DNA of 7,350 bases from a virus. Its lineage: Duplodnaviria > Heunggongvirae > Uroviricota > Caudoviricetes. Where the stretch lies: the IMG/VR virus record IMGVR_UViG_2534681766_000002; one strand, 5' to 3'. A model generated the notes under the pieces. It was not told the DNA's origin, searched no databases, and worked only from the letters and a program-made list of their open reading frames with translations. The translations under genes and the position numbers were made by a program. Below, piece after piece: positions 1-7,350 of this stretch (positions are counted from its first letter, which is position 1; every line of letters starts with the position of its first letter).

Positions 1-297
1 AAAGCTTTTATTGTATGTAAAAAAGCAGCTTAATATAGCCACTTAGTGGTAAAGATCTACCTTAAGACTTTGATATGTTCAAGAGGCATATAACGTAAGT
101 GTTCGTTGAGCCAAATGTGTTTACGCTATGACGAGTTGGTCGTTTTTTGACAATCCTGTAGGAGCTATAGATAGGCGTATATTAAGTGCGTGTTTTTGCA
201 TGTGTCAGATACTATTCTTTTTGTCAGTTTCGGTCAGTGCTGATGTGATTTCAGTTTCATCATGCAACTGCATTAAAACCGCCCCATGAAGCGGGCG

Positions 298-316
298 GGC
301 GAGGCGGGGAAAGCAC
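298..316. other. cos: cos site: 19-nt cohesive-end sequence GGCGAGGCGGGGAAAGCAC of P2/P4-type phages (terminase cleavage site)
   Basis: Exact string ggcgaggcggggaaagcac at 298..316, which I recall as the P2 5' cohesive end. It lies ~170 bp from the stop of portal gene Q, the expected left-end position. Flanked by a G/T-rich stretch (317..458) typical of a packaging region. Confidence 0.75.
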
Positions 317-458
317 TGCGCGCTGGCGGTGGTGCTGATTTTATTTTTTCAGCGTCTGAGCGCGTCGTGATGGCGTTTAGATTGTGCGCCGGGGCGTTGG
401 TGTGTATGCGGGCTGTTTTGTGCGGTGGTGAGCGTGTGAGGGCGTGATGACGGGGTGT

Positions 459-480
459 AAAAAAGCCGCCCGCAGGCGGC
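459..480 (-). terminator. Rho-independent terminator downstream of Q (end of the P-Q late transcript)
   Basis: On the minus strand: stem GCCGCC (revcomp of 475..480), 4-nt loop, stem GGCGGC (revcomp of 465..470), followed by a T6 run (revcomp of a459..a464). Begins 6 nt after the Q stop codon (486..488). Confidence 0.6.
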
Positions 481-485
481 GATGT

Positions 486-1520
486 TCAGCCGTTGTCAGT
501 GTCCAGTGAGTAGTTTTTAAAGCGGATGACCTCCTGACCGAGCCAGCCGTTTATCTCGCGGATCCTGTCCTGTAACGGGATAAGCTCATTGCGGACAAAG
601 ACCTTTGCCACTTTCTCAATATCACCCAGCGACCCGACGTTCTCCGGCTTGCCGCCCATCAACTGAAAGGGGATGCGGTGCGCGTCCAGCAGGTCTGCGG
701 CGCTGGCTTTTTTGATATTAAAAAAATCGTCCTTCGTTGCCACTTCACTGAGCGGGATAATTTTAATACCGTCGGCTTTTCCCTGTGGGGCGTAGAGAAA
801 CAGGTTTTTAAAGTTGTTGCGGCCTTTCGACTTCACCATGTTTTCGCGAAGCATTTCGATATCGTTGCGATCCTGCACGGCATCGGTGACGTACATGATG
901 TATCCGGCATGTGCGCCGTTTTCGTAATACTTGCGGCGGAACAGCGTGGCCGATTCATTCAGCCAGGCAGAGTTAAGGGCGCTGAGATATTCCGGCAGGC
1001 CGTACAGCTCCTGATTGATATCCGGCTCCAGCAGGTGAAACACGGAGCCGGGCGCGAAAGGTGTCGGCTCGTTGAAGGATGGCACCCACCAGTAAACATC
1101 CTCCTCCACGCCACGGCGGGTATATTTTGCCGGTGAGGTTTCCAGTCTGATGACCTTACCGGTAGTGCTGTAGCGCTTTTCCAGAAACGCATTACCGAAC
1201 ACCAGAAAATCCAGCACAAAGCGGCTGAAATCCTGCTGGGAAAGCCACGGGTGCGGGATAAACGTTGAAGCCAGAATATTACGTTTGACGTAAATCGGTG
1301 AGCTGTGATGCACGGCAGCACGCAGACTTTTTGCCAGACCGGTAAAGCTGACCGGTGGCTCATACCATCTGCCGTTACTGATGCACTCGACGTAATCCAG
1401 AATATCACGGCGGTCGAGTACCGGCACCGGCTCACCAAAGGTGAATGCCTCCATTTTCGGGGCGCTGGCAGTCATTGTTTTCACCGCTGGCTGCGGTGTT
1501 TTCCCTTTTTTCTTACTCAT
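486..1520 (-). CDS. Q: Portal (capsid portal vertex) protein, P2 gpQ-type, 344 aa
   Basis: Full-length ORF from the six-frame track (MSKKKGKTPQ...). Length and sequence match my recollection of P2 gpQ. Position directly inside cos and upstream partner of the terminase gene. Start ATG (1518..1520) overlaps the P stop codon by 1 nt. Confidence 0.93.
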   Translation of the reverse strand: MSKKKGKTPQPAVKTMTASAPKMEAFTFGEPVPVLDRRDILDYVECISNGRWYEPPVSFTGLAKSLRAAVHHSSPIYVKRNILASTFIPHPWLSQQDFSRFVLDFLVFGNAFLEKRYSTTGKVIRLETSPAKYTRRGVEEDVYWWVPSFNEPTPFAPGSVFHLLEPDINQELYGLPEYLSALNSAWLNESATLFRRKYYENGAHAGYIMYVTDAVQDRNDIEMLRENMVKSKGRNNFKNLFLYAPQGKADGIKIIPLSEVATKDDFFNIKKASAADLLDAHRIPFQLMGGKPENVGSLGDIEKVAKVFVRNELIPLQDRIREINGWLGQEVIRFKNYSLDTDNG

Positions 1521-3292
1521 CAGTAAAACTCCAGAATGGTGGATGTCAGCGGAGTGCTGATACCGGCGGTGAGTGGCTCATTTAACAGGGCGTGCATGGT
1601 CGCCCAGGCGAGGTCGGCGTGGCTGGCTTCCTCGCTGCGGCTGGCCTCATAGGTGGCGCTGCGTCCGCTGCTGGTCATGGTCTTGCGGATAGCCATGAAC
1701 GAGCTGGTGATGTCGGTGGCGCTGACGTCATATTCCAGACAGCCACGGCGGATAACGTCTTTTGCCTTGAGCACCATTGCAGTTTTCATTTCCGGCGTGT
1801 AGCGGATATCGCGCGCGGCGGGATAGAACGAGCGCACGAGCTGGAACACGCCGACACCGAGGCCGGTGGCATCAATACCGATGTATTCGACGTTATATTT
1901 TTCGGTGAGTTTGCGGATGGATTCAGCCTGGGTGGCAAAGTCCATGCCTTTCCACTGGTGACGCTCAAGTATTCTGAATTTGCCACCGGCCACCACCGGC
2001 GGTGCCAGCACCACGCATCCGGCGCTGTCGCCACGGTGTGACGGGTCGTAACCAATCCATACCGGACGTGAGCCGAACGGATTGGCGGCAAACGGAGCAT
2101 AGTCTTCCCATTCTTCCAGCGTGTCGACCATGCAGCGTTGCAGCTCCTCGAACGGGAACACCGACGCCTTGTCGTCAACAAATTCACACATGAACAGGTT
2201 TTTAAAATCGTCGGCGCTGTTTTCACGTTTGAGCTGCTCAATGTCGAACAGCGTGCAGCCGCCTTTCAGGGCGTCCTCAATGGTGACAATCTGCCGCCAC
2301 TGGCCGTCCGCACAGAGAAGCCCACCGGCAAGGGCGTTATGACTGACGTCGATTTCCACGCGTTCGGCGGCGCTGGCGCGTCCCCGGTTAAACAGTTCAC
2401 CCGACCAGAACGGGTAGGCGTCGTGCGCCAGTGTGGACGGGGTGGAGAAATAGGTCGAGCGCAGGTGACTCTGTGAGGCCATACCTGATGCCACCTTACG
2501 CAGTACCTGAAAATTCGGGATCCAGAAAATCTCGTCGACGTACAGGTCGCCGTTATGGCTCTGCGCGGGGTTGGAGTTGGTGCCGAGAAAAATCAGTTTT
2601 GCGCCGTTATTGCCCAGGACAATTGGGTCACCGGTCAGGTCAACGTCAACCAGCCGGGCAAAGGCGATGATGTATTCGCGGAACACATACGCCTGCGTTT
2701 TACTGGCCGACAGAAAAATCTGGTTATGACCGGTTTTCAGGGCGCGCAGCAGCGCCTCGCGGGAAAAATAAAACGTCGCGCCAATCTGGCGGGATTTCAG
2801 GATATCGCGGATGCGGTGCTCAAGCCCTGCGCGATACCAGTGCAACTGATATTCGAAAGACTGCTCAAAGAAAATCTGCTCCAGCTTTTCGATGGCCTCG
2901 TCACTGAAAAAATTCTTTTTCGGTTTGCGACGCCCGCCTTTGTTGCGGTTAGCGACGTTCGGATTAAGGTCTGCCTCGTTGCCGGTCTGACTGTAACGGT
3001 TGACCCGTGCCAGTCGTTCAATCTGGCGTCCGAGCAGGTCAATTTCCTTGAAGTCACCGCCGGTTTTCTGCGGTTTGATGATGAGCTGGGTCAGCCGCGC
3101 TTCCAGACTCATTTCGACACGGCTGATGGGGGCAACGCTGTCCCAGCCGTCGCGCTGTTTCCAGCTCTGCACCGTCGGGCGTTTCATCTGCAACATGGCG
3201 GCAATCCGCGGCACGGAAAATCCCTGCCAGTACAGCAGCGCCGCCTGACGACGCGGGTCGTGTAAAAGAGTGGTGTCTGTGGTGATGGTCAT
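1520..3292 (-). CDS. P: Terminase large (ATPase) subunit, P2 gpP-type, 590 aa
   Basis: The track ORF is 1520..3322 (600 aa). I place the start at the internal ATG 3290..3292 (MTITTDTTLL...) because it has a GAGG Shine-Dalgarno about 6 nt upstream on the minus strand, and it gives 590 aa, the length I recall for P2 gpP. The upstream ATG at 3322 has no comparable RBS. Confidence 0.88.
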   Translation of the reverse strand: MTITTDTTLLHDPRRQAALLYWQGFSVPRIAAMLQMKRPTVQSWKQRDGWDSVAPISRVEMSLEARLTQLIIKPQKTGGDFKEIDLLGRQIERLARVNRYSQTGNEADLNPNVANRNKGGRRKPKKNFFSDEAIEKLEQIFFEQSFEYQLHWYRAGLEHRIRDILKSRQIGATFYFSREALLRALKTGHNQIFLSASKTQAYVFREYIIAFARLVDVDLTGDPIVLGNNGAKLIFLGTNSNPAQSHNGDLYVDEIFWIPNFQVLRKVASGMASQSHLRSTYFSTPSTLAHDAYPFWSGELFNRGRASAAERVEIDVSHNALAGGLLCADGQWRQIVTIEDALKGGCTLFDIEQLKRENSADDFKNLFMCEFVDDKASVFPFEELQRCMVDTLEEWEDYAPFAANPFGSRPVWIGYDPSHRGDSAGCVVLAPPVVAGGKFRILERHQWKGMDFATQAESIRKLTEKYNVEYIGIDATGLGVGVFQLVRSFYPAARDIRYTPEMKTAMVLKAKDVIRRGCLEYDVSATDITSSFMAIRKTMTSSGRSATYEASRSEEASHADLAWATMHALLNEPLTAGISTPLTSTILEFY

Positions 3293-3465
3293 GAATACCT
3301 CGCCGTGATGAATACACGGCAAGGCTACTGAGTCGCGCCCCGCGATTCGCTAAGGTGCTGTTGTGTCAGTGATAAGCCATCCGGGACTGATGGCGGAGGA
3401 TGCGCATCGTCGGGAAACTGATGCCGACATGTGACTCCTCTAATCACTATTCAGGACTCCTGACA
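3293..3465. promoter_or_regulatory. Divergent late-promoter region between P (leftward) and O (rightward); expected site of Ogr/Delta-activated promoters
   Basis: 173-bp noncoding gap between divergently transcribed operons. P2-type late promoters are activator-dependent with a TGT-N12-ACA-like dyad near -55. The only near match I found is TGT(3430..3432)-N12-CAC(3445..3447). Exact promoter elements are not resolved from sequence alone. Confidence 0.45.
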
Positions 3466-3543
3466 ATGGCAAAAAAAGTCTCAAAATTCTTTCGTATCGG
3501 CGTTGAGGGTGACACCTGTGACGGGCGTGTCATCAGTGCGTAG
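3466..3543 (+). other. O: N-terminal 25 codons of scaffold/protease gene O, ended by an in-frame amber TAG at codon 26 (3541..3543)
   Basis: ATG at 3466 with AGGA 9 nt upstream. Reads MAKKVSKFFRIGVEGDTCDGRVISA then TAG, in the same frame as the downstream 254-aa ORF. 3466..4320 without the stop would be 284 codons, the length I recall for P2 gpO. Asp at codon 19, His at 48 and Ser at 107 in this numbering match the gpO protease catalytic triad as I recall it. Confidence 0.65.
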
Positions 3544-3555
3544 GATATTCAGGAA

Positions 3556-4320
3556 ATGGCCGAAACCTTTGACCCGCGAGTCTATGGTTGCCGCATTAAC
3601 CTGGAACATCTGCGCGGCATCCTGCCTGACGGTATTTTTAAGCGTTATGGCGATGTGGCCGAACTGAAGGCCGAAAAGATTGACGATGATTCGGCGCTGA
3701 AAGGCAAATGGGCGCTGTTTGCGAAAATCACCCCGACCGATGACCTTATCGCGATGAACAAGGCCGCGCAGAAGGTCTATACCTCAATGGAAATTCAGCC
3801 GAACTTTGCCAATACCGGCAAATGTTATCTGGTGGGTCTGGCCGTCACCGATGACCCGGCAAGCCTCGGCACGGAATACCTGGAATTCTGCCGCACGGCA
3901 AAACACAACCCCCTGAACCGCTTCAAATTAAACCCTGAAAACCTGATTTCAGTGGCAACGCCCGTTGAGCTGGAATTTGAAGACCTGCCTGAAACCGTGT
4001 TCACCGCCCTGACCGAAAAGGTGAAGTCCATTTTTGGCCGCAAACAGGCCAGCGATGACGCCCGTCTGAATGACGTGCATGAAGCGGTGACCGCTGTTGC
4101 TGAACATGTGCAGGAAAAACTGAGCGCCACTGAGCAGCGCCTCGCTGAGATGGAAACCGCTTTTTCCGCACTTAAGCAGGAGGTGACTGACAGGGCGGAT
4201 GAAACCAGCCAGGCATTCACCCGCCTGAAAAACAGTCTCGACCACACCGAAAGTCTGACCCAGCAGCGCCGCAGCAAGGCCACCGGTGGTGGCGGTGACG
4301 CCCTGATGACGAACTGCTGA
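3556..4320 (+). CDS. O: Capsid scaffolding protein/prohead protease gpO, as an N-terminally truncated ORF (254 aa) downstream of the amber codon
   Basis: Track ORF 3556..4320 (MAETFDPRVYGCRINLEHLRG...). Contains His and Ser of the presumed triad but not Asp19. Coiled-coil-like C-terminal half (EQRLAEMETAFSALKQEV...) typical of scaffold proteins. The internal ATG has only a close-spaced AGGAA (3 nt spacing), so independent initiation is doubtful. Confidence 0.8.
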   Translation: MAETFDPRVYGCRINLEHLRGILPDGIFKRYGDVAELKAEKIDDDSALKGKWALFAKITPTDDLIAMNKAAQKVYTSMEIQPNFANTGKCYLVGLAVTDDPASLGTEYLEFCRTAKHNPLNRFKLNPENLISVATPVELEFEDLPETVFTALTEKVKSIFGRKQASDDARLNDVHEAVTAVAEHVQEKLSATEQRLAEMETAFSALKQEVTDRADETSQAFTRLKNSLDHTESLTQQRRSKATGGGGDALMTNC

Positions 4321-4378
4321 CCGGCGTCAGTCAGTCCGGGAAAACCTTCACGATTAACCCTTAATTTCAGGAAAAACT

Positions 4379-5452
4379 ATGCGCCAGGAAACCCGCTTTA
4401 AATTTAATGCCTACCTGTCCCGTGTTGCCGAACTGAACGGCATCGACGCCGGTGATGTGTCGAAAAAATTCACCGTTGAACCGTCGGTCACCCAGACCCT
4501 GATGAACACCATGCAGGAGTCCTCTGACTTTCTGACCCGCATCAACATTGTGCCGGTCAGCGAAATGAAAGGGGAAAAAATTGGCATCGGTGTCACCGGC
4601 TCCATCGCCAGCACCACCGACACCGCCGGTGGCACCGAGCGTCAGCCGAAGGACTTCTCGAAGCTGGCGTCAAACAAGTACGAATGCGACCAGATTAACT
4701 TCGATTTTTATATCCGCTACAAAACGCTGGACCTGTGGGCGCGTTATCAGGATTTCCAGCTCCGTGTCCGTAACGCCATTATCAAACGCCAGTCCCTTGA
4801 TTTCATCATGGCCGGTTTTAACGGCGTGAGGCGTGCCGAAACCTCTGACCGCAGCAGCAATCCGATGCTGCAGGATGTGGCGGTCGGCTGGCTGCAGAAA
4901 TACCGCAATGAAGCCCCGGCGCGCGTGATGAGCAAGGTCACTGACGAGGAAGGGCACACCACCTCTGAGGTTATCCGCGTGGGTAAGGGCGGTGATTATG
5001 CCAGCCTTGACGCACTGGTGATGGATGCGACCAACAACCTGATTGAGCCGTGGTATCAGGAAGACCCTGACCTTGTGGTGATTGTGGGACGTCAGCTACT
5101 GGCGGACAAGTATTTTCCCATCGTCAACAAGGAGCAGGACAACAGCGAAATGCTGGCCGCTGACGTCATCATCAGCCAGAAACGCATCGGTAACCTGCCG
5201 GCGGTACGCGTCCCGTACTTCCCGGCGGATGCGATGCTCATCACAAAGCTGGAAAACCTGTCCATCTACTACATGGATGACAGCCATCGCCGCGTGATTG
5301 AGGAAAACCCGAAACTCGACCGCGTGGAGAACTACGAATCAATGAACATTGATTACGTGGTGGAAGACTACGCCGCCGGTTGTCTGGTGGAAAAAATTAA
5401 GGTCGGTGATTTCTCCACACTGGCTAAAGCGACCGCAGAGCCGGGAGCGTAA
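4379..5452 (+). CDS. N: Major capsid protein, P2 gpN-type, 357 aa
   Basis: Full-length ORF (MRQETRFKFNAYLSRVAELNG...). Length and sequence match my recollection of P2 gpN. AGGA 9 nt upstream of the ATG. Sits between scaffold and small terminase genes as in P2. Confidence 0.93.
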   Translation: MRQETRFKFNAYLSRVAELNGIDAGDVSKKFTVEPSVTQTLMNTMQESSDFLTRINIVPVSEMKGEKIGIGVTGSIASTTDTAGGTERQPKDFSKLASNKYECDQINFDFYIRYKTLDLWARYQDFQLRVRNAIIKRQSLDFIMAGFNGVRRAETSDRSSNPMLQDVAVGWLQKYRNEAPARVMSKVTDEEGHTTSEVIRVGKGGDYASLDALVMDATNNLIEPWYQEDPDLVVIVGRQLLADKYFPIVNKEQDNSEMLAADVIISQKRIGNLPAVRVPYFPADAMLITKLENLSIYYMDDSHRRVIEENPKLDRVENYESMNIDYVVEDYAAGCLVEKIKVGDFSTLAKATAEPGA

Positions 5453-5455
5453 CCG

Positions 5456-6199
5456 ATGACGAGTCCCGCACAGCGCCACATGATGCGGGTCTCGGCAGCG
5501 ATGACCGCGCAGCGGGAAGCCGCCCCGCTGCGACATGCAACTGTCTATGAGCAGATGCTGGTTAAGCTCGCCGCAGACCAGCGCACACTGAAAGCGATTT
5601 ATTCAAAAGAGCTGAAGGCCGCAAAAAAACGCGAACTGCTGCCGTTCTGGTTGCCGTGGGTGAACGGCGTGCTGGAGCAGGGCAAAGGTGCACAGGATGA
5701 CATTCTGATGACGGTCATGCTGTGGCGTCTGGATACCGGCGATATTGCCGGTGCGCTGGAGATTGCCCGTTATGCCCTGAAGTACGGTCTGACCATGCCG
5801 GGTAAACACCGCCGCACCCCGCCGTACATGTTCACCGAGGAGGTGGCGCTCGCGGCCATGCGCGCCCACGCTGCCGGTGAGTCTGTGGATACCCGCCTGC
5901 TGACGGAGACCCTTGCACTGACCGCCACGGCAGACATGCCTGATGAAGTGCGCGCAAAGCTGCACAAAATCACCGGTCTGTTTCTGCGTGACGCTGGTGA
6001 TGCCGCCGGTGCGCTGGCTCACCTGCAACGTGCGACACAGCTCGACTGTCAGGCAGGCGTCAAAAAAGAGATTGAACGACTGGAGCGGGAGCTGAAACCG
6101 AAGCCGGAGCCGCAGCCCAAAGCGGCCACCCGCGCCCCGCGTAAGACCCGGAGCGTGACACCGGCAAAACGTGGACGCCCGAAAAAGAAAGCCAGTTAA
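5456..6199 (+). CDS. M: Terminase small (endonuclease/DNA-recognition) subunit, P2 gpM-type, 247 aa
   Basis: Full-length ORF starting 4 nt after the N stop, with GGGAG RBS at 5441..5445. Basic Lys/Arg/Pro-rich C-terminal tail. Length matches recalled P2 gpM. Confidence 0.88.
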   Translation: MTSPAQRHMMRVSAAMTAQREAAPLRHATVYEQMLVKLAADQRTLKAIYSKELKAAKKRELLPFWLPWVNGVLEQGKGAQDDILMTVMLWRLDTGDIAGALEIARYALKYGLTMPGKHRRTPPYMFTEEVALAAMRAHAAGESVDTRLLTETLALTATADMPDEVRAKLHKITGLFLRDAGDAAGALAHLQRATQLDCQAGVKKEIERLERELKPKPEPQPKAATRAPRKTRSVTPAKRGRPKKKAS

Positions 6200-6298
6200 C
6201 AACCGAATGCGCCCCGCGCCAGGGCGGCACGCCGGTCAGTGAGGGTGAATCACCTGACACTGCACCGGCGTCCACCGCCCGACTTTTCAGAGGTAGTC

Positions 6299-6808
6299 AT
6301 GATGACGCTGATTATTCCGCGAAAGGAGGCTCCCGTGTCCGGTGAGGGTACGGTGGTCATCCCGCAACCGGCAGGCGACGAGCCGGTGATTAAAAACACG
6401 TTCTTTTTTCCCGATATCGACCCGAAGCGCGTCCGGGAACGTATGCGCCTTGAGCAGACTGTCGCCCCCGCCCGTCTGCGTGAGGCCATCAAGTCAGGCA
6501 TGGCGGAGACGAATGCGGAGCTGTACGAGTACCGCGAACAGAAAATTGCTGCCGGTTTTTCGCGTCTGGCTGACGTCCCGGCGGACGACATCGACGGTGA
6601 AAGCATCAAAGTTTTTTACTACGAGCGCGCCGTGTGTGCGATGGCGACCGCGTCGCTTTATGAGCGTTATCGCGGCGTGGATGCCAGTGCGAAAGGCGAC
6701 AAGAAGGCCGACAGCATTGACAGCACCATTGATGAACTGTGGCGGGATATGCGCTGGGCAGTGGCGCGCATCCAGGACAAGCCGCGCTGCATCGTGAGTC
6801 AAATCTGA
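6299..6808 (+). CDS. L: Head completion/stabilisation protein, P2 gpL-type, 169 aa
   Basis: Track ORF begins at 6239, but I place the start at ATG 6299 (MMTLIIPRKEAP...), which has AGAGG 5 nt upstream and gives 169 aa as recalled for gpL. Stop TGA 6806..6808 overlaps the X start. Confidence 0.88.
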   Translation: MMTLIIPRKEAPVSGEGTVVIPQPAGDEPVIKNTFFFPDIDPKRVRERMRLEQTVAPARLREAIKSGMAETNAELYEYREQKIAAGFSRLADVPADDIDGESIKVFYYERAVCAMATASLYERYRGVDASAKGDKKADSIDSTIDELWRDMRWAVARIQDKPRCIVSQI

Positions 6809-7011
6809 TGAAGACCTTTGCGCTACAGGGCGACACGCTCGACGCCATTTGTGTCCGGTATTACGGGCGCACTGAGGGCGTGGTTGAGACCGTGCTCGCC
6901 GCAAATCCGGGACTGGCTGAACTGGGTGCGGTGCTGCCACACGGCACCGCCGTCGAACTGCCCGACGTTCAGACCGCGCCCGTGGCTGAAACTGTCAATC
7001 TGTGGGAGTAA
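6808..7011 (+). CDS. X: Tail protein X (LysM-like domain), P2 gpX-type, 67 aa
   Basis: ATG 6808..6810 overlaps the L stop (TGATG). Product MKTFALQGDTLDAICVRYYGRTEGVV... has a LysM-like motif. The track shows it as the second half of a 90-aa ORF from 6739; the upstream part overlaps L and is rejected. Confidence 0.82.
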   Translation: MKTFALQGDTLDAICVRYYGRTEGVVETVLAANPGLAELGAVLPHGTAVELPDVQTAPVAETVNLWE

Positions 7012-7014
7012 CGC

Positions 7015-7239
7015 ATGACAGCAGAAGAAAAAAGCGTCCTGTCGCTTTTCATGATTGGGGTGCTGATTGTTGTCGGCAAGGTGCTTGCCGGTGGTGAACC
7101 CATCACCCCGCGTCTGTTTATCGGGCGCATGTTGCTCGGTGGTTTTGTCTCGATGGTTGACCGGCCAGCACAACGACACCGGCCAGCCACTTTCGTTAAC
7201 CATCCCTGTGAGTTGAAACCATGCCGATTATCGACCTGA
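7015..7239 (+). CDS. Y: Holin Y-like ORF (74 aa as read); hydrophobic N-terminal 48 aa, atypical Arg/Pro/Cys-rich C-terminus, possibly disrupted
   Basis: ATG 7015 with GGGAG at 7004..7008. Residues 8-26 and 34-48 are hydrophobic and transmembrane-like. After codon 48 (from 7159) the frame encodes DRPAQRHRPATFVNHPCELKPCRLST. I recall P2 Y as 93 aa, which does not fit the stop at 7237..7239. Confidence 0.55.
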   Translation: MTAEEKSVLSLFMIGVLIVVGKVLAGGEPITPRLFIGRMLLGGFVSMVDRPAQRHRPATFVNHPCELKPCRLST

Positions 7240-7243
7240 ACCA

Positions 7244-7350
7244 GCTATCGGGGCGATTAGCTGGCCGGTAGTGGCCGTGGTGGCCGCCATTGTCGCCGGG
7301 GCGTTACTTATCCGTAAATACTGGGAGCCTGTCAGCGCATTTTTTGGCGG
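7244..7350 (+). other. Hydrophobic reading frame with no start codon, running off the window end; likely displaced 3' part of holin gene Y (partial)
   Basis: The frame shifted +1 relative to Y encodes AIGAISWPVVAVVAAIVAGALLIRKYWEPVSAFFG with no stop to the window end and no ATG/GTG with an RBS. Joining it to Y codon 48 gives a continuous hydrophobic span followed by a charged stretch, as expected of a holin. Confidence 0.4.

What the first reader, a model, noticed from the sequence alone, without database searches (positions are those of the whole stretch)
1..316. Internal cos junction with an AT-rich right-end flank: edge of the P2-type variable cargo hotspot
The cos sequence at 298..316 is internal, so the molecule is a prophage or circular form. 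Positions 1..297 are sharply AT-rich (about 30% G+C in the first 60 nt by my count) against the GC-rich late genes. They contain no ORF in the track. In P2-type phages the segment between replication gene A and cos (the tin/old region) is a known variable locus that often carries anti-phage cargo. The window only captures its last ~300 bp, so the interesting content, if any, is immediately upstream.
Basis: partly seen in the sequence, partly recalled or inferred. Interest (0 to 1): 0.5.

Follow-up and report, generated by a model that had tools for sequence, protein, structure and literature searches.

The report
P2 prophage cos junction, hotspot edge
This is the ordinary joined-ends (cos) site of a P2-type prophage, and the AT-rich DNA beside it is the control region of a swapped-in, already catalogued RloC-like defence gene that starts just outside the window.

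Summary
298..316 is an exact copy of the P2 cohesive-end 19-mer (0 chance matches expected). It lies about 170 bp beyond the stop of portal gene Q. 1..250 is 31-41% G+C against 55-61% further right.

The interpretation also holds. In every relative that shares 1..297 (44 complete E. coli genomes and one IMG/VR contig), a 738-aa minus-strand gene starts 19 nt left of window position 1, between replication gene A and cos. It is 29.5% G+C. It matches PADLOC PDC-S06 and Pfam AAA_13, and it carries every sequence hallmark of the anticodon nuclease RloC.

Eight prophages whose portal protein is identical to the window's carry seven other cargos. That shows the hotspot directly.

All of this is published. 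Rousset 2022 lists "AAA_13, RloC-like" as P2-hotspot system #5, with the same protein accession.

Two refinements:
- 1..173 belongs to the cargo. It holds a promoter-like footprint, TTGAAC-N17-TAGATC, at 82..54 (minus strand).
- 174..297 is the right arm of cos. It carries TGCAT-type repeats at fixed offsets (-124, -111, -101, -29), shared with satellite P4.

I did not find the window's exact source contig, so the upstream gene is inferred by linkage.

The parts
1..173 (-). Cargo-specific upstream region (promoter plus 5' leader) of an RloC-like ATPase/anticodon-nuclease gene. Its start codon lies 19 nt beyond the left edge of the window.
   Evidence: Identical in L001-L003 and L087, where the 738-aa gene starts 19 nt left of window position 1 with a GAGG Shine-Dalgarno. 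44 genomes carry the flank and 44 carry gene plus flank. G+C is 35.3%, against 29.5% for the gene. There is no conservation with P2-type loci that carry other cargo.
54..82 (-). Promoter-like footprint TTGAAC (82..77) - N17 - TAGATC (59..54); contains a GATC.
   Evidence: cTTGAAn-N17-TAGATCT recurs 68-82 nt before the ATG in 5 of 6 diverged RloC-like genes (three E. coli variants, Kosakonia, Klebsiella). Their upstream DNA is otherwise unalignable. In Kosakonia the gene is not adjacent to cos. Function is inferred.
23..44 (-). Weak hairpin plus U-run in the predicted leader.
   Evidence: Terminator-like site in the scan. The leader fold is not significant: z = -1.31. Low confidence.
174..201 (.). 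Distal cos right-arm repeats at -124, -111 and -101. In this window they read GGCGT (174), TGCGT (187) and TGCAT (197).
   Evidence: TGCAT occupies these offsets in 74 P2-type loci from many genera: 273 copies against 23.7 +/- 4.8 in shuffles. P2 has it at -123, -111 and -101. P4 has it at -124, -111 and -101. 48-49 of 50 distinct P4-like arms have it.
234..243 (.). Palindrome TCAGTGCTGA in the variable spacer of the cos right arm (about -64..-55).
   Evidence: The anchored consensus is cgcCAG..CTGGcg. P4-like arms keep an inverted repeat through changes on both sides, for example CGCGCC..GGCGCG and CACCAG..CCGGTG.
262..297 (.). Proximal conserved cos right arm, ATGCAACTGCATTAAAACCGCCCCATGAAGCGGGCG. 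It forms the right part of the published 55-bp P2/P4 core.
   Evidence: Homology to prophages with other cargo starts at window 251-263. Information content is 0.9-1.75 bits per position. TGCAT sits at -29 in 72 of 74 loci. The 55-bp core is cited in PMC3931495 and PMC5694545.
298..316 (+). 19-nt cohesive-end sequence (the cos cleavage interval).
317..345 (.). Conserved cos left-arm block, TGCGCGCTGGCGGTGGTGCTGATTTTATT.
   Evidence: The anchored consensus is conserved to about +35, followed by a T-rich run. The scan reports a hairpin plus T-run at 320..335 on the + strand.
465..480 (-). Intrinsic-terminator-like hairpin directly after the stop of Q.
   Evidence: GCCGCCTGCGGGCGGC followed by TTTTTT. 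The Q stop is at 486.
486..1520 (-). Portal gene Q, the conserved right border gene of the hotspot.
   Evidence: Pfam Phage_portal. An identical protein occurs in prophages with seven other cargos.

Best explanation
Window 1..316 is the joined right-end/left-end junction of a P2-type (Peduovirus) prophage. It has three functional layers.

1. 298..316 is the 19-nt interval that P2 terminase (gpM/gpP) cuts with staggered nicks to make the cohesive ends. It is intact here because the genome is integrated.

2. 174..297 is the right arm of cos. It contains a proximal conserved block (262..297, part of the published 55-bp P2/P4 core), a palindrome (234..243), and a distal set of TGCAT-type repeats at -124, -111 and -101. 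I infer that these are recognition sites for the terminase, analogous to lambda cosB. They set the inner physical limit of the variable locus.

3. 1..173 is not phage backbone. It is the AT-rich control region of a horizontally acquired cargo gene that is transcribed leftward, away from cos. The likely promoter is TTGAAC-N17-TAGATC at 82..54. The start codon lies 19 nt outside the window.

By linkage, that cargo is a 738-aa RloC-type protein. It has a Rad50-like ABC ATPase with a zinc-hook insert, fused to an anticodon nuclease. On published RloC biochemistry it would sense DNA damage or DNA ends during infection, excise the tRNA wobble nucleotide and stop translation (abortive infection).

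Shown: the sequence identities, positions, linkage, cargo diversity and motif conservation.

Inferred: terminase binding to the repeats, promoter activity, and anti-phage function.
For: cos:
- The 19-mer is an exact, unique match; 0 matches are expected by chance.
- Virion records start at window 298.
- P2 annotates the same 19-mer as cosR.

Gene order: the late genes are identified by Pfam.

Prophage state.

Cargo linkage:
- 44 genomes carry 1..297, and 44 carry gene plus flank.
- L001-L003 and L087 are identical to the window through 357-449 and carry the gene.

Cargo identity:
- PADLOC PDC-S06, E = 1e-254.
- Pfam AAA_13, E = 2e-111.
- Homologues are named wobble nucleotide-excising tRNase.
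- Invariant residues: Walker A, C254/C257, the LSEGE signature, DD, H571, and R646-x3-E650-x39-S689-H690. This fits the published Arg-X3-Glu-X36-52-His definition (PMC2610378).
- The AF2 model has long helices flanking the CxxC loop and an all-helical C-terminal domain.
- The best fold hits are Rad50.

Hotspot:
- Seven cargos occur behind identical portal proteins.
- It is published as the gpA-gpQ hotspot, with 'AAA_13 / RloC-like' as system #5 and WP_000423308 listed.

cos arm:
- Fixed-offset TGCAT repeats are enriched more than 10-fold.
- The anchored conservation profile shows discrete blocks.
- The same offsets occur in P2, in P4 and in 50 distinct P4-like arms.
- Longer cos flanks raised cosmid transduction more than 1000-fold (PMC9594776).

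Promoter:
- The footprint is conserved in 5 of 6 variants.
- The layout is analogous to P2, where old-tin mRNA starts map 149-151 nt from cosR.

Composition: cargo 29.5% G+C, against 53-57% for A, Q and P.
Against: - I did not find the window's own contig. The best complete genome is 98.3% identical. L087 diverges after position 449. The eight loci with an identical portal protein all differ from the window at 200 or more positions. The upstream gene therefore rests on linkage.
- The -10 candidate TAGATC lacks the usual final T. The generic promoter scan did not report this pair; it picked CTGACA-N18-TAATAT at 208..179 instead.
- In this window two of the three distal repeats are degenerate (GGCGT and TGCGT).
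- No experiment available to me shows that gpM binds the TGCAT repeats.
- The primary cos paper (Ziermann & Calendar 1990) is not held.
- The papers I read propose an anti-phage role for RloC but do not demonstrate it. I found no test of the P2-borne variant.
Confidence: 0.8

Rival explanations
1. The distal TGCAT repeats (window 174..201) are transcription-control elements for the leftward cargo operon, such as a -35/UP region or regulator sites. On this reading they are not part of the packaging site.
For: In P2 the mapped old-tin starts fit the promoter TTGAAT-N17-TAAAAA, whose -35 overlaps the outermost TGCAT copy. In the window, the only promoter the generic scan found (CTGACA 208..203 / TAATAT 184..179, minus strand) overlaps the array.
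Against: The repeats keep fixed offsets from cos, not from the cargo start codons. Those start codons lie 243, 287 and 316 nt from cos in three RloC-like variants. The repeats are present whatever the cargo and its orientation. P4 and P4-like satellites carry them at the same offsets, downstream of the convergent psu gene, and there the hotspot lies on the other side of cos. The 208..179 promoter candidate is not conserved in the other RloC-like variants.
Confidence: 0.15
2. Window 1..173 is inert recombination debris. The cargo gene would be expressed from elsewhere, for example by read-through from the late operon across cos.
For: Most of 83..173 has no recognisable feature. The leader fold is not significant.
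Against: Terminator-like hairpins on the minus strand at 480..465 and 298..279 lie between Q and the cargo. The TTGAA-N17-TAGATC footprint is kept in five diverged variants, including one that is not next to cos. P2's own cargo has mapped promoter-proximal starts in the equivalent flank.
Confidence: 0.08
3. This particular molecule carries some other cargo, or none, upstream. On this reading it keeps only the last ~300 bp of an RloC-type module as a relic.
For: I did not recover the exact source contig. P2-type genomes are mosaic. In the E. coli type strain the gene is split by ISEc12.
Against: All loci examined that share the flank carry the gene, intact or IS-split. The genome counts match, 44 and 44.
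Confidence: 0.05
4. The 19-mer is a coincidental GC-rich string and not a cos site.
For: None found.
Against: 0 of 200 shuffles gave a match at up to 3 mismatches. The string is identical to P2 cosR. It lies at the canonical distance from Q in 74-82 loci. Virion genome records start there.
Confidence: 0.01

Closest known systems
Bacteriophage P2 right end: tin-old region, old-tin promoter and cosR (NC_001895)
   Same: The 19-nt cohesive end is identical. The order is the same: gene A, then minus-strand accessory genes, then an AT-rich promoter flank, then cos, then Q. The TGCAT offsets are the same (-123, -111, -101, -29).
   Different: The cargo is a single RloC-like gene instead of old plus tin. 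The flank left of about -125 is unrelated. The candidate promoter lies about 250 nt from cos, whereas P2's mapped starts are about 150 nt from cos.
P2 gpA-gpQ defence hotspot, system #5 'AAA_13 / RloC-like' (Rousset et al. 2022, PMC9122126, Table S5)
   Same: Same locus. The relatives that share the window's flank encode WP_000423308, the protein accession listed in that table. The domain call is the same.
   Different: Nothing substantive. The sequence printed for system #5 in the table is a diverged variant of the same family. I found no phage-challenge result for this system in the parts I read.
RloC anticodon nuclease (Geobacillus kaustophilus and Acinetobacter baylyi; PMC2610378, PMC3458546, PMC3874168)
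   Same: ABC ATPase motifs, a CxxC zinc-hook in a helical insert, and an Arg-x3-Glu-x39-Ser-His triad. It is a stand-alone gene with no linked type I R-M system.
   Different: Sequence identity to JGI-named RloC homologues is only about 26-33%. It is carried by a prophage next to cos. Its activity has not been tested. The gene itself lies outside the window.
Lambda cos (cosN plus cosB with R sites and an IHF site)
   Same: A nicking interval is flanked on one side by an array of short repeated recognition elements separated by spacers of free sequence.
   Different: There is no sequence relationship, and the terminase small subunit family differs. For P2, binding to the repeats is inferred here, not shown.

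Membership tests
P2-type cos site | 19-nt cohesive-end sequence GGCGAGGCGGGGAAAGCAC | tested here: met
   Exact match at 298..316; unique; 0 expected by chance. Identical to the annotated cosR of NC_001895.
P2-type cos site | 55-bp core shared by P2 and P4 (about -36..+19) | tested here: met
   Window 262..316 aligns without gaps to P2 and P4 with a few substitutions. The core is cited in PMC3931495 and PMC5694545.
P2-type cos site | Position between the stop of portal gene Q and the gene A-side accessory region | tested here: met
   The Q stop is at 486 and cos at 298. The same layout occurs in 74-82 loci.
P2-type cos site | Cleavage by P2 terminase to give 5' cohesive ends | not testable with these tools
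   Indirect only: linear virion records (fiAA91-ss, S164, HQ103) begin at the base equivalent to window 298.
P2 gpA-gpQ defence hotspot (Rousset 2022) | Locus lies between replication gene A and portal gene Q, adjacent to cos | tested here: met
   Seen in relatives sharing the flank. The window itself holds only the Q-side edge.
P2 gpA-gpQ defence hotspot (Rousset 2022) | Gene content varies among otherwise near-identical prophages | tested here: met
   Seven cargos occur behind identical portal proteins: GmrSD; SIR2_2; RVT_1 plus an AAA ATPase; CdtABC; DUF4238; Lactamase_B; DUF3850/ASCH plus unknowns.
P2 gpA-gpQ defence hotspot (Rousset 2022) | Cargo confers anti-phage defence | not testable with these tools
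   Only a candidate: PADLOC PDC-S06 and RloC-like motifs.
RloC anticodon nuclease (the linked cargo, outside the window) | ABC ATPase motifs: Walker A, signature, Walker B/D-loop, switch His | tested here: met
   G30/G35/K36, S500/G502/E503, D535/D536 and H571 are invariant in 16 sequences down to about 20% identity.
RloC anticodon nuclease (the linked cargo, outside the window) | Coiled-coil insert with a CxxC zinc hook splitting the ATPase head | tested here: met
   C254 and C257 are invariant. The AF2 model shows long helices at 90-141 and 403-447, with CxxC in a loop. Rad50 and SMC are the best fold matches. Zinc binding was not tested.
RloC anticodon nuclease (the linked cargo, outside the window) | C-terminal triad Arg-X3-Glu-X36-52-His, often with Ser before His (PMC2610378) | tested here: met
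   R646 is invariant. E650, S689 and H690 are at least 90% conserved. The spacing is x3 and x39.
RloC anticodon nuclease (the linked cargo, outside the window) | Excises the tRNA wobble nucleotide; activated by DNA ends | not testable with these tools

The most novel reading that the evidence does not exclude
The functional P2/P4 cos site may be about 160 bp rather than the usually quoted 55-bp core. On this reading its right arm carries a phased array of TGCAT repeats at -124, -111 and -101, plus a symmetric element at about -60. These would act as the terminase small-subunit recognition site (a cosB analogue) shared by helper and satellite. The array would also fix the inner border against which defence cassettes and their promoters are exchanged.
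Probability: 0.25. Interest if true: 0.4.

Novelty: already known. Interest (0 to 1): 0.2.

Why it matters
As a discovery it matters little. The P2 cos site, the A-to-cos hotspot and the RloC-like cargo are all published, down to the same protein accession.

It has some practical value:
- It shows that a 300-bp edge is enough to predict the neighbouring cargo by linkage.
- It separates cargo-owned DNA (1..173) from packaging-site DNA (174..316). This matters for anyone delimiting hotspot cassettes or cloning them 'with native promoter'.
- The extended cos arm could explain why longer cos fragments package far better in P2/P4 cosmid systems.
- P2-borne RloC would be a convenient E. coli system for finally testing whether RloC defends against phage.

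Tried and rejected
Finding the source contig failed by three routes:
- megablast against E. coli complete genomes gave at best 98.3% identity;
- an exact 64-mer scan of IMG/VR found only a mosaic relative that diverges after position 449;
- an exact look-up of the portal protein returned eight loci, none identical and none with RloC.

Other negative results:
- Rfam on 1..520 gave only a chance-level snoRNA hit (E = 0.29, 20 bits against a gathering score of 70).
- A sequence search of the cargo protein against the PDB gave no hits. NCBIfam gave nothing useful.
- The small ORFs at 128..289 and 286..447 are rejected as genes.
- The leader RNA structure is not significant.
- The hairpin at 298..279 is not a conserved terminator. 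By eye, the stem is not kept in the majority consensus from other genera.
- The promoter at 208..179 is not conserved in the other RloC-like variants.
- None of the 80 loci from other species carries an RloC-like gene at this locus. The Yersinia variant lacks the promoter footprint.
- Ziermann & Calendar 1990 and the Christie & Calendar P2 review could not be read.
- Supplements of the 2026 NAR paper are not held.

Full report
**Observation**

The string GGCGAGGCGGGGAAAGCAC occupies 298..316. It is the only match in the window at up to three mismatches, and none of 200 dinucleotide-preserving shuffles produced one. It is identical to the 19 nt annotated as cosR at the right end of phage P2, NC_001895. 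Several linear phage records (fiAA91-ss with an annotated cosL, S164, HQ103) begin at exactly the base equivalent to window 298.

To the right lie the P2 late genes, identified by Pfam:
- portal Q, 486..1520(-);
- large terminase P, 1520..3322(-);
- scaffold O, capsid N and small terminase M.

G+C is 31-41% over 1..250 and 55-61% over 251..500. Both mechanical ORFs in the region (128..289 and 286..447) lack family matches. The second is not conserved in relatives.

**What lies upstream**

The window ends at the interesting place, so I used relatives.

- The 297-nt flank is present at full length in 44 complete E. coli genomes, mostly at 100% identity.
- In three of them (ATCC 11775, APEC O1, E200139) a minus-strand 'AAA family ATPase' of 738 aa starts 19 nt left of window position 1, preceded by a GAGG Shine-Dalgarno. 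It fills the space down to replication gene A.
- A query of gene plus flank is also found at full length in 44 genomes. Most other P2-type prophages share only the last ~38 bases before cos.
- An IMG/VR contig that is identical to the window through position 449 carries the same gene.

I did not find the window's own contig. The best complete genome is 98.3% identical. The window is a mosaic: identical to the RloC-carrying prophages up to 357-449, then 2-3% divergent. The upstream gene is therefore inferred by linkage, with high but not complete confidence.

**The cargo**

- The protein matches PADLOC candidate PDC-S06 end to end (E = 1e-254) and Pfam AAA_13 (E = 2e-111). It has a weak hit to the C-terminal part of PrrC.
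- Homologues at about 26-33% identity over the full length are named 'wobble nucleotide-excising tRNase' by JGI.
- In a 16-sequence alignment reaching about 20% identity, these residues are invariant: Walker A (G30, G35, K36), a CxxC (C254, C257), the ABC signature (S500, G502, E503), Walker B (D535, D536), the switch histidine (H571) and R646. E650, S689 and H690 are at least 90% conserved.
- The spacing R-x3-E-x39-S-H fits the published RloC definition, Arg-X3-Glu-X36-52-His with Ser often before His (PMC2610378).
- An AlphaFold model (mean pLDDT 81) shows an ABC head split by long helices, the CxxC in a loop, and an all-helical C-terminal domain. Its best PDB matches are Rad50 chains.

All sequence-level RloC features are met; activity cannot be tested here. 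The gene is 29.5% G+C, against 53-57% for A, Q and P. This explains the AT-rich flank: it belongs to a foreign cassette.

**The hotspot**

A look-up of the window's exact portal protein returned eight prophages. Between Q and A they carry seven different gene sets:
- GmrSD;
- SIR2_2;
- a reverse transcriptase plus an AAA ATPase;
- cytolethal distending toxin ABC;
- DUF4238;
- a metallo-beta-lactamase-fold protein plus an unknown;
- DUF3850/ASCH plus unknowns.

RloC-like genes in Kosakonia and Yersinia also sit between Q and A. A Klebsiella copy sits in a decayed P2 remnant.

This reproduces what is published. Rousset et al. 2022 describe the gpA-gpQ, cos-adjacent hotspot with 1,650 arrangements in 18,150 loci. 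Their Table S5 lists 'AAA_13', noted 'RloC-like', as system #5 with 420 occurrences. It lists WP_000423308, the APEC O1 protein, by accession. A 1996 paper by Dodd and Egan on retrons replacing DNA next to cos in a 186-related prophage, and a 2026 NAR paper, cover the same ground.

**Anatomy of 1..316**

Homology to prophages with other cargo begins at window 251-263. A cos-anchored, ungapped profile of 77 non-redundant flanks from many genera shows more structure:
- no conservation left of about -125;
- a block at -124..-96;
- a variable spacer;
- a partly conserved symmetric element at about -66..-50;
- the strongly conserved -36..+35 region.

The distal block is a set of TGCAT repeats at fixed offsets. 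Across 74 loci the counts are:

| Offset from cos | Loci with TGCAT (of 74) |
|---|---|
| -29 | 72 |
| -101 | 49 |
| -111 | 49 |
| -120 or -124 | 50 |

In total there are 273 copies, against 23.7 +/- 4.8 in shuffled flanks. P2 has the repeats at -123, -111, -101 and -29. Satellite P4 shares only cos with P2 and is packaged by P2 terminase. It has them at -124, -111, -101 and -29. So do 48-49 of 50 distinct P4-like right arms, including those with Psu only 62-64% identical. In those arms the -60 element stays an inverted repeat through changes on both sides.

In the window the corresponding positions read:
- GGCGT at 174;
- TGCGT at 187;
- TGCAT at 197;
- TCAGTGCTGA at 234..243;
- ATGCAACTGCAT from 262.

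I infer that 174..297 is the terminase-recognition arm of cos. The fixed register to cos, the independence from cargo, and the presence in P4 downstream of a convergent gene all argue against a purely transcriptional role. In P2, however, the -35 of the mapped old-tin promoter touches the outermost repeat.

The accessible literature mentions only a 55-bp core. One paper reports over 1000-fold better transduction with longer cos flanks. The primary 1990 paper was not available, so I cannot say whether the distal repeats are new.

**The cargo-owned part, 1..173**

I compared the upstream regions of six diverged RloC-like genes. Five share cTTGAAn-N17-TAGATCT, ending 68-82 nt before the ATG, in otherwise unalignable DNA. 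One of the five is the Kosakonia gene, which is not adjacent to cos. In the window this element is TTGAAC (82..77) and TAGATC (59..54) on the minus strand.

It is the best candidate for the cassette's own promoter, which would make the leader about 66 nt. The -10 is imperfect, and the generic scan preferred a non-conserved site at 208..179, so I give this about 55% confidence. The leader hairpin is not significant.

**Mechanism, as far as supported**

In the prophage, cos is silent DNA. After induction, terminase would bind the right arm, nick at 297/298 and 316/317, and package leftward through Q. This follows from established P2 biology together with the conservation shown here.

The cassette is transcribed away from cos from its own promoter. 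On published RloC biochemistry, the ATPase/zinc-hook module responds to DNA ends, and the C-domain excises the wobble nucleotide of tRNA. Translation is thereby shut down. The papers I read propose a defensive role for RloC but do not demonstrate it.

**Verdict**

The only possibly under-described element is the extended, repeat-bearing cos right arm. Interest is low (0.2).

Noticed in passing
window 174..297; also L005 (P2), L096 (P4), L007-L095, L103-L182: TGCAT repeats sit at fixed offsets (-124, -111, -101, -29) from the cohesive end, with a symmetric element at about -60. They are conserved across P2-type phages of many genera and in P4-like satellites. This extends well beyond the '55-bp cos core' quoted in the accessible literature.
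   Followed up: yes
window 286..447 (+): RefSeq annotates a 53-aa 'hypothetical protein' (WP_000816492) that reads straight across the cos cleavage site. Its start codon is kept in only 17 of 82 related loci, so it is probably a spurious call.
   Followed up: yes
L001 7179..11982 (E. coli type strain ATCC 11775): In the E. coli type strain the RloC-like gene is split by an IS21-family ISEc12 insertion. The toxic cargo is inactivated there, while the flank and cos stay intact.
   Followed up: partly
L088 907..1650 and L094 695..1774: Two prophages with the same portal protein carry an extra plus-strand gene between baseplate gene V and tail gene S. One is a RelA_SpoT-domain protein; the other is a 247-aa unknown. 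This suggests a second small variable slot in the late region.
   Followed up: no
L007, L011, L063 (record titles): Contigs labelled 'Bacillota bacterium' MAG, Vagococcus sp. and Chryseobacterium sp. carry enterobacterial P2-type prophage DNA. Their portal proteins are 73-99% identical to the window's. This most likely reflects contamination or mis-binning in those assemblies.
   Followed up: no
window 317..345 (+): A conserved block lies just inside the left end (TGCGCGCTGGCGGTGGTGC, then a T-rich run). The scan calls it terminator-like on the + strand. It is conserved across genera, so it is probably part of the cos left arm.
   Followed up: partly
window 1..449 versus 450..7350: The window is a recombinant mosaic. 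The cos-plus-cargo-flank segment is identical to RloC-carrying prophages. The late genes differ from those same prophages by 2-3%, and they match prophages with other cargos about as well.
   Followed up: partly
L100 6666..8165 and L099 2190..3226: In Yersinia the RloC-like gene shares the hotspot with a reverse-transcriptase gene. In Kosakonia two unknown genes (84 and 236 aa) lie between it and cos. The same cassette therefore occurs both alone and in combinations.
   Followed up: no
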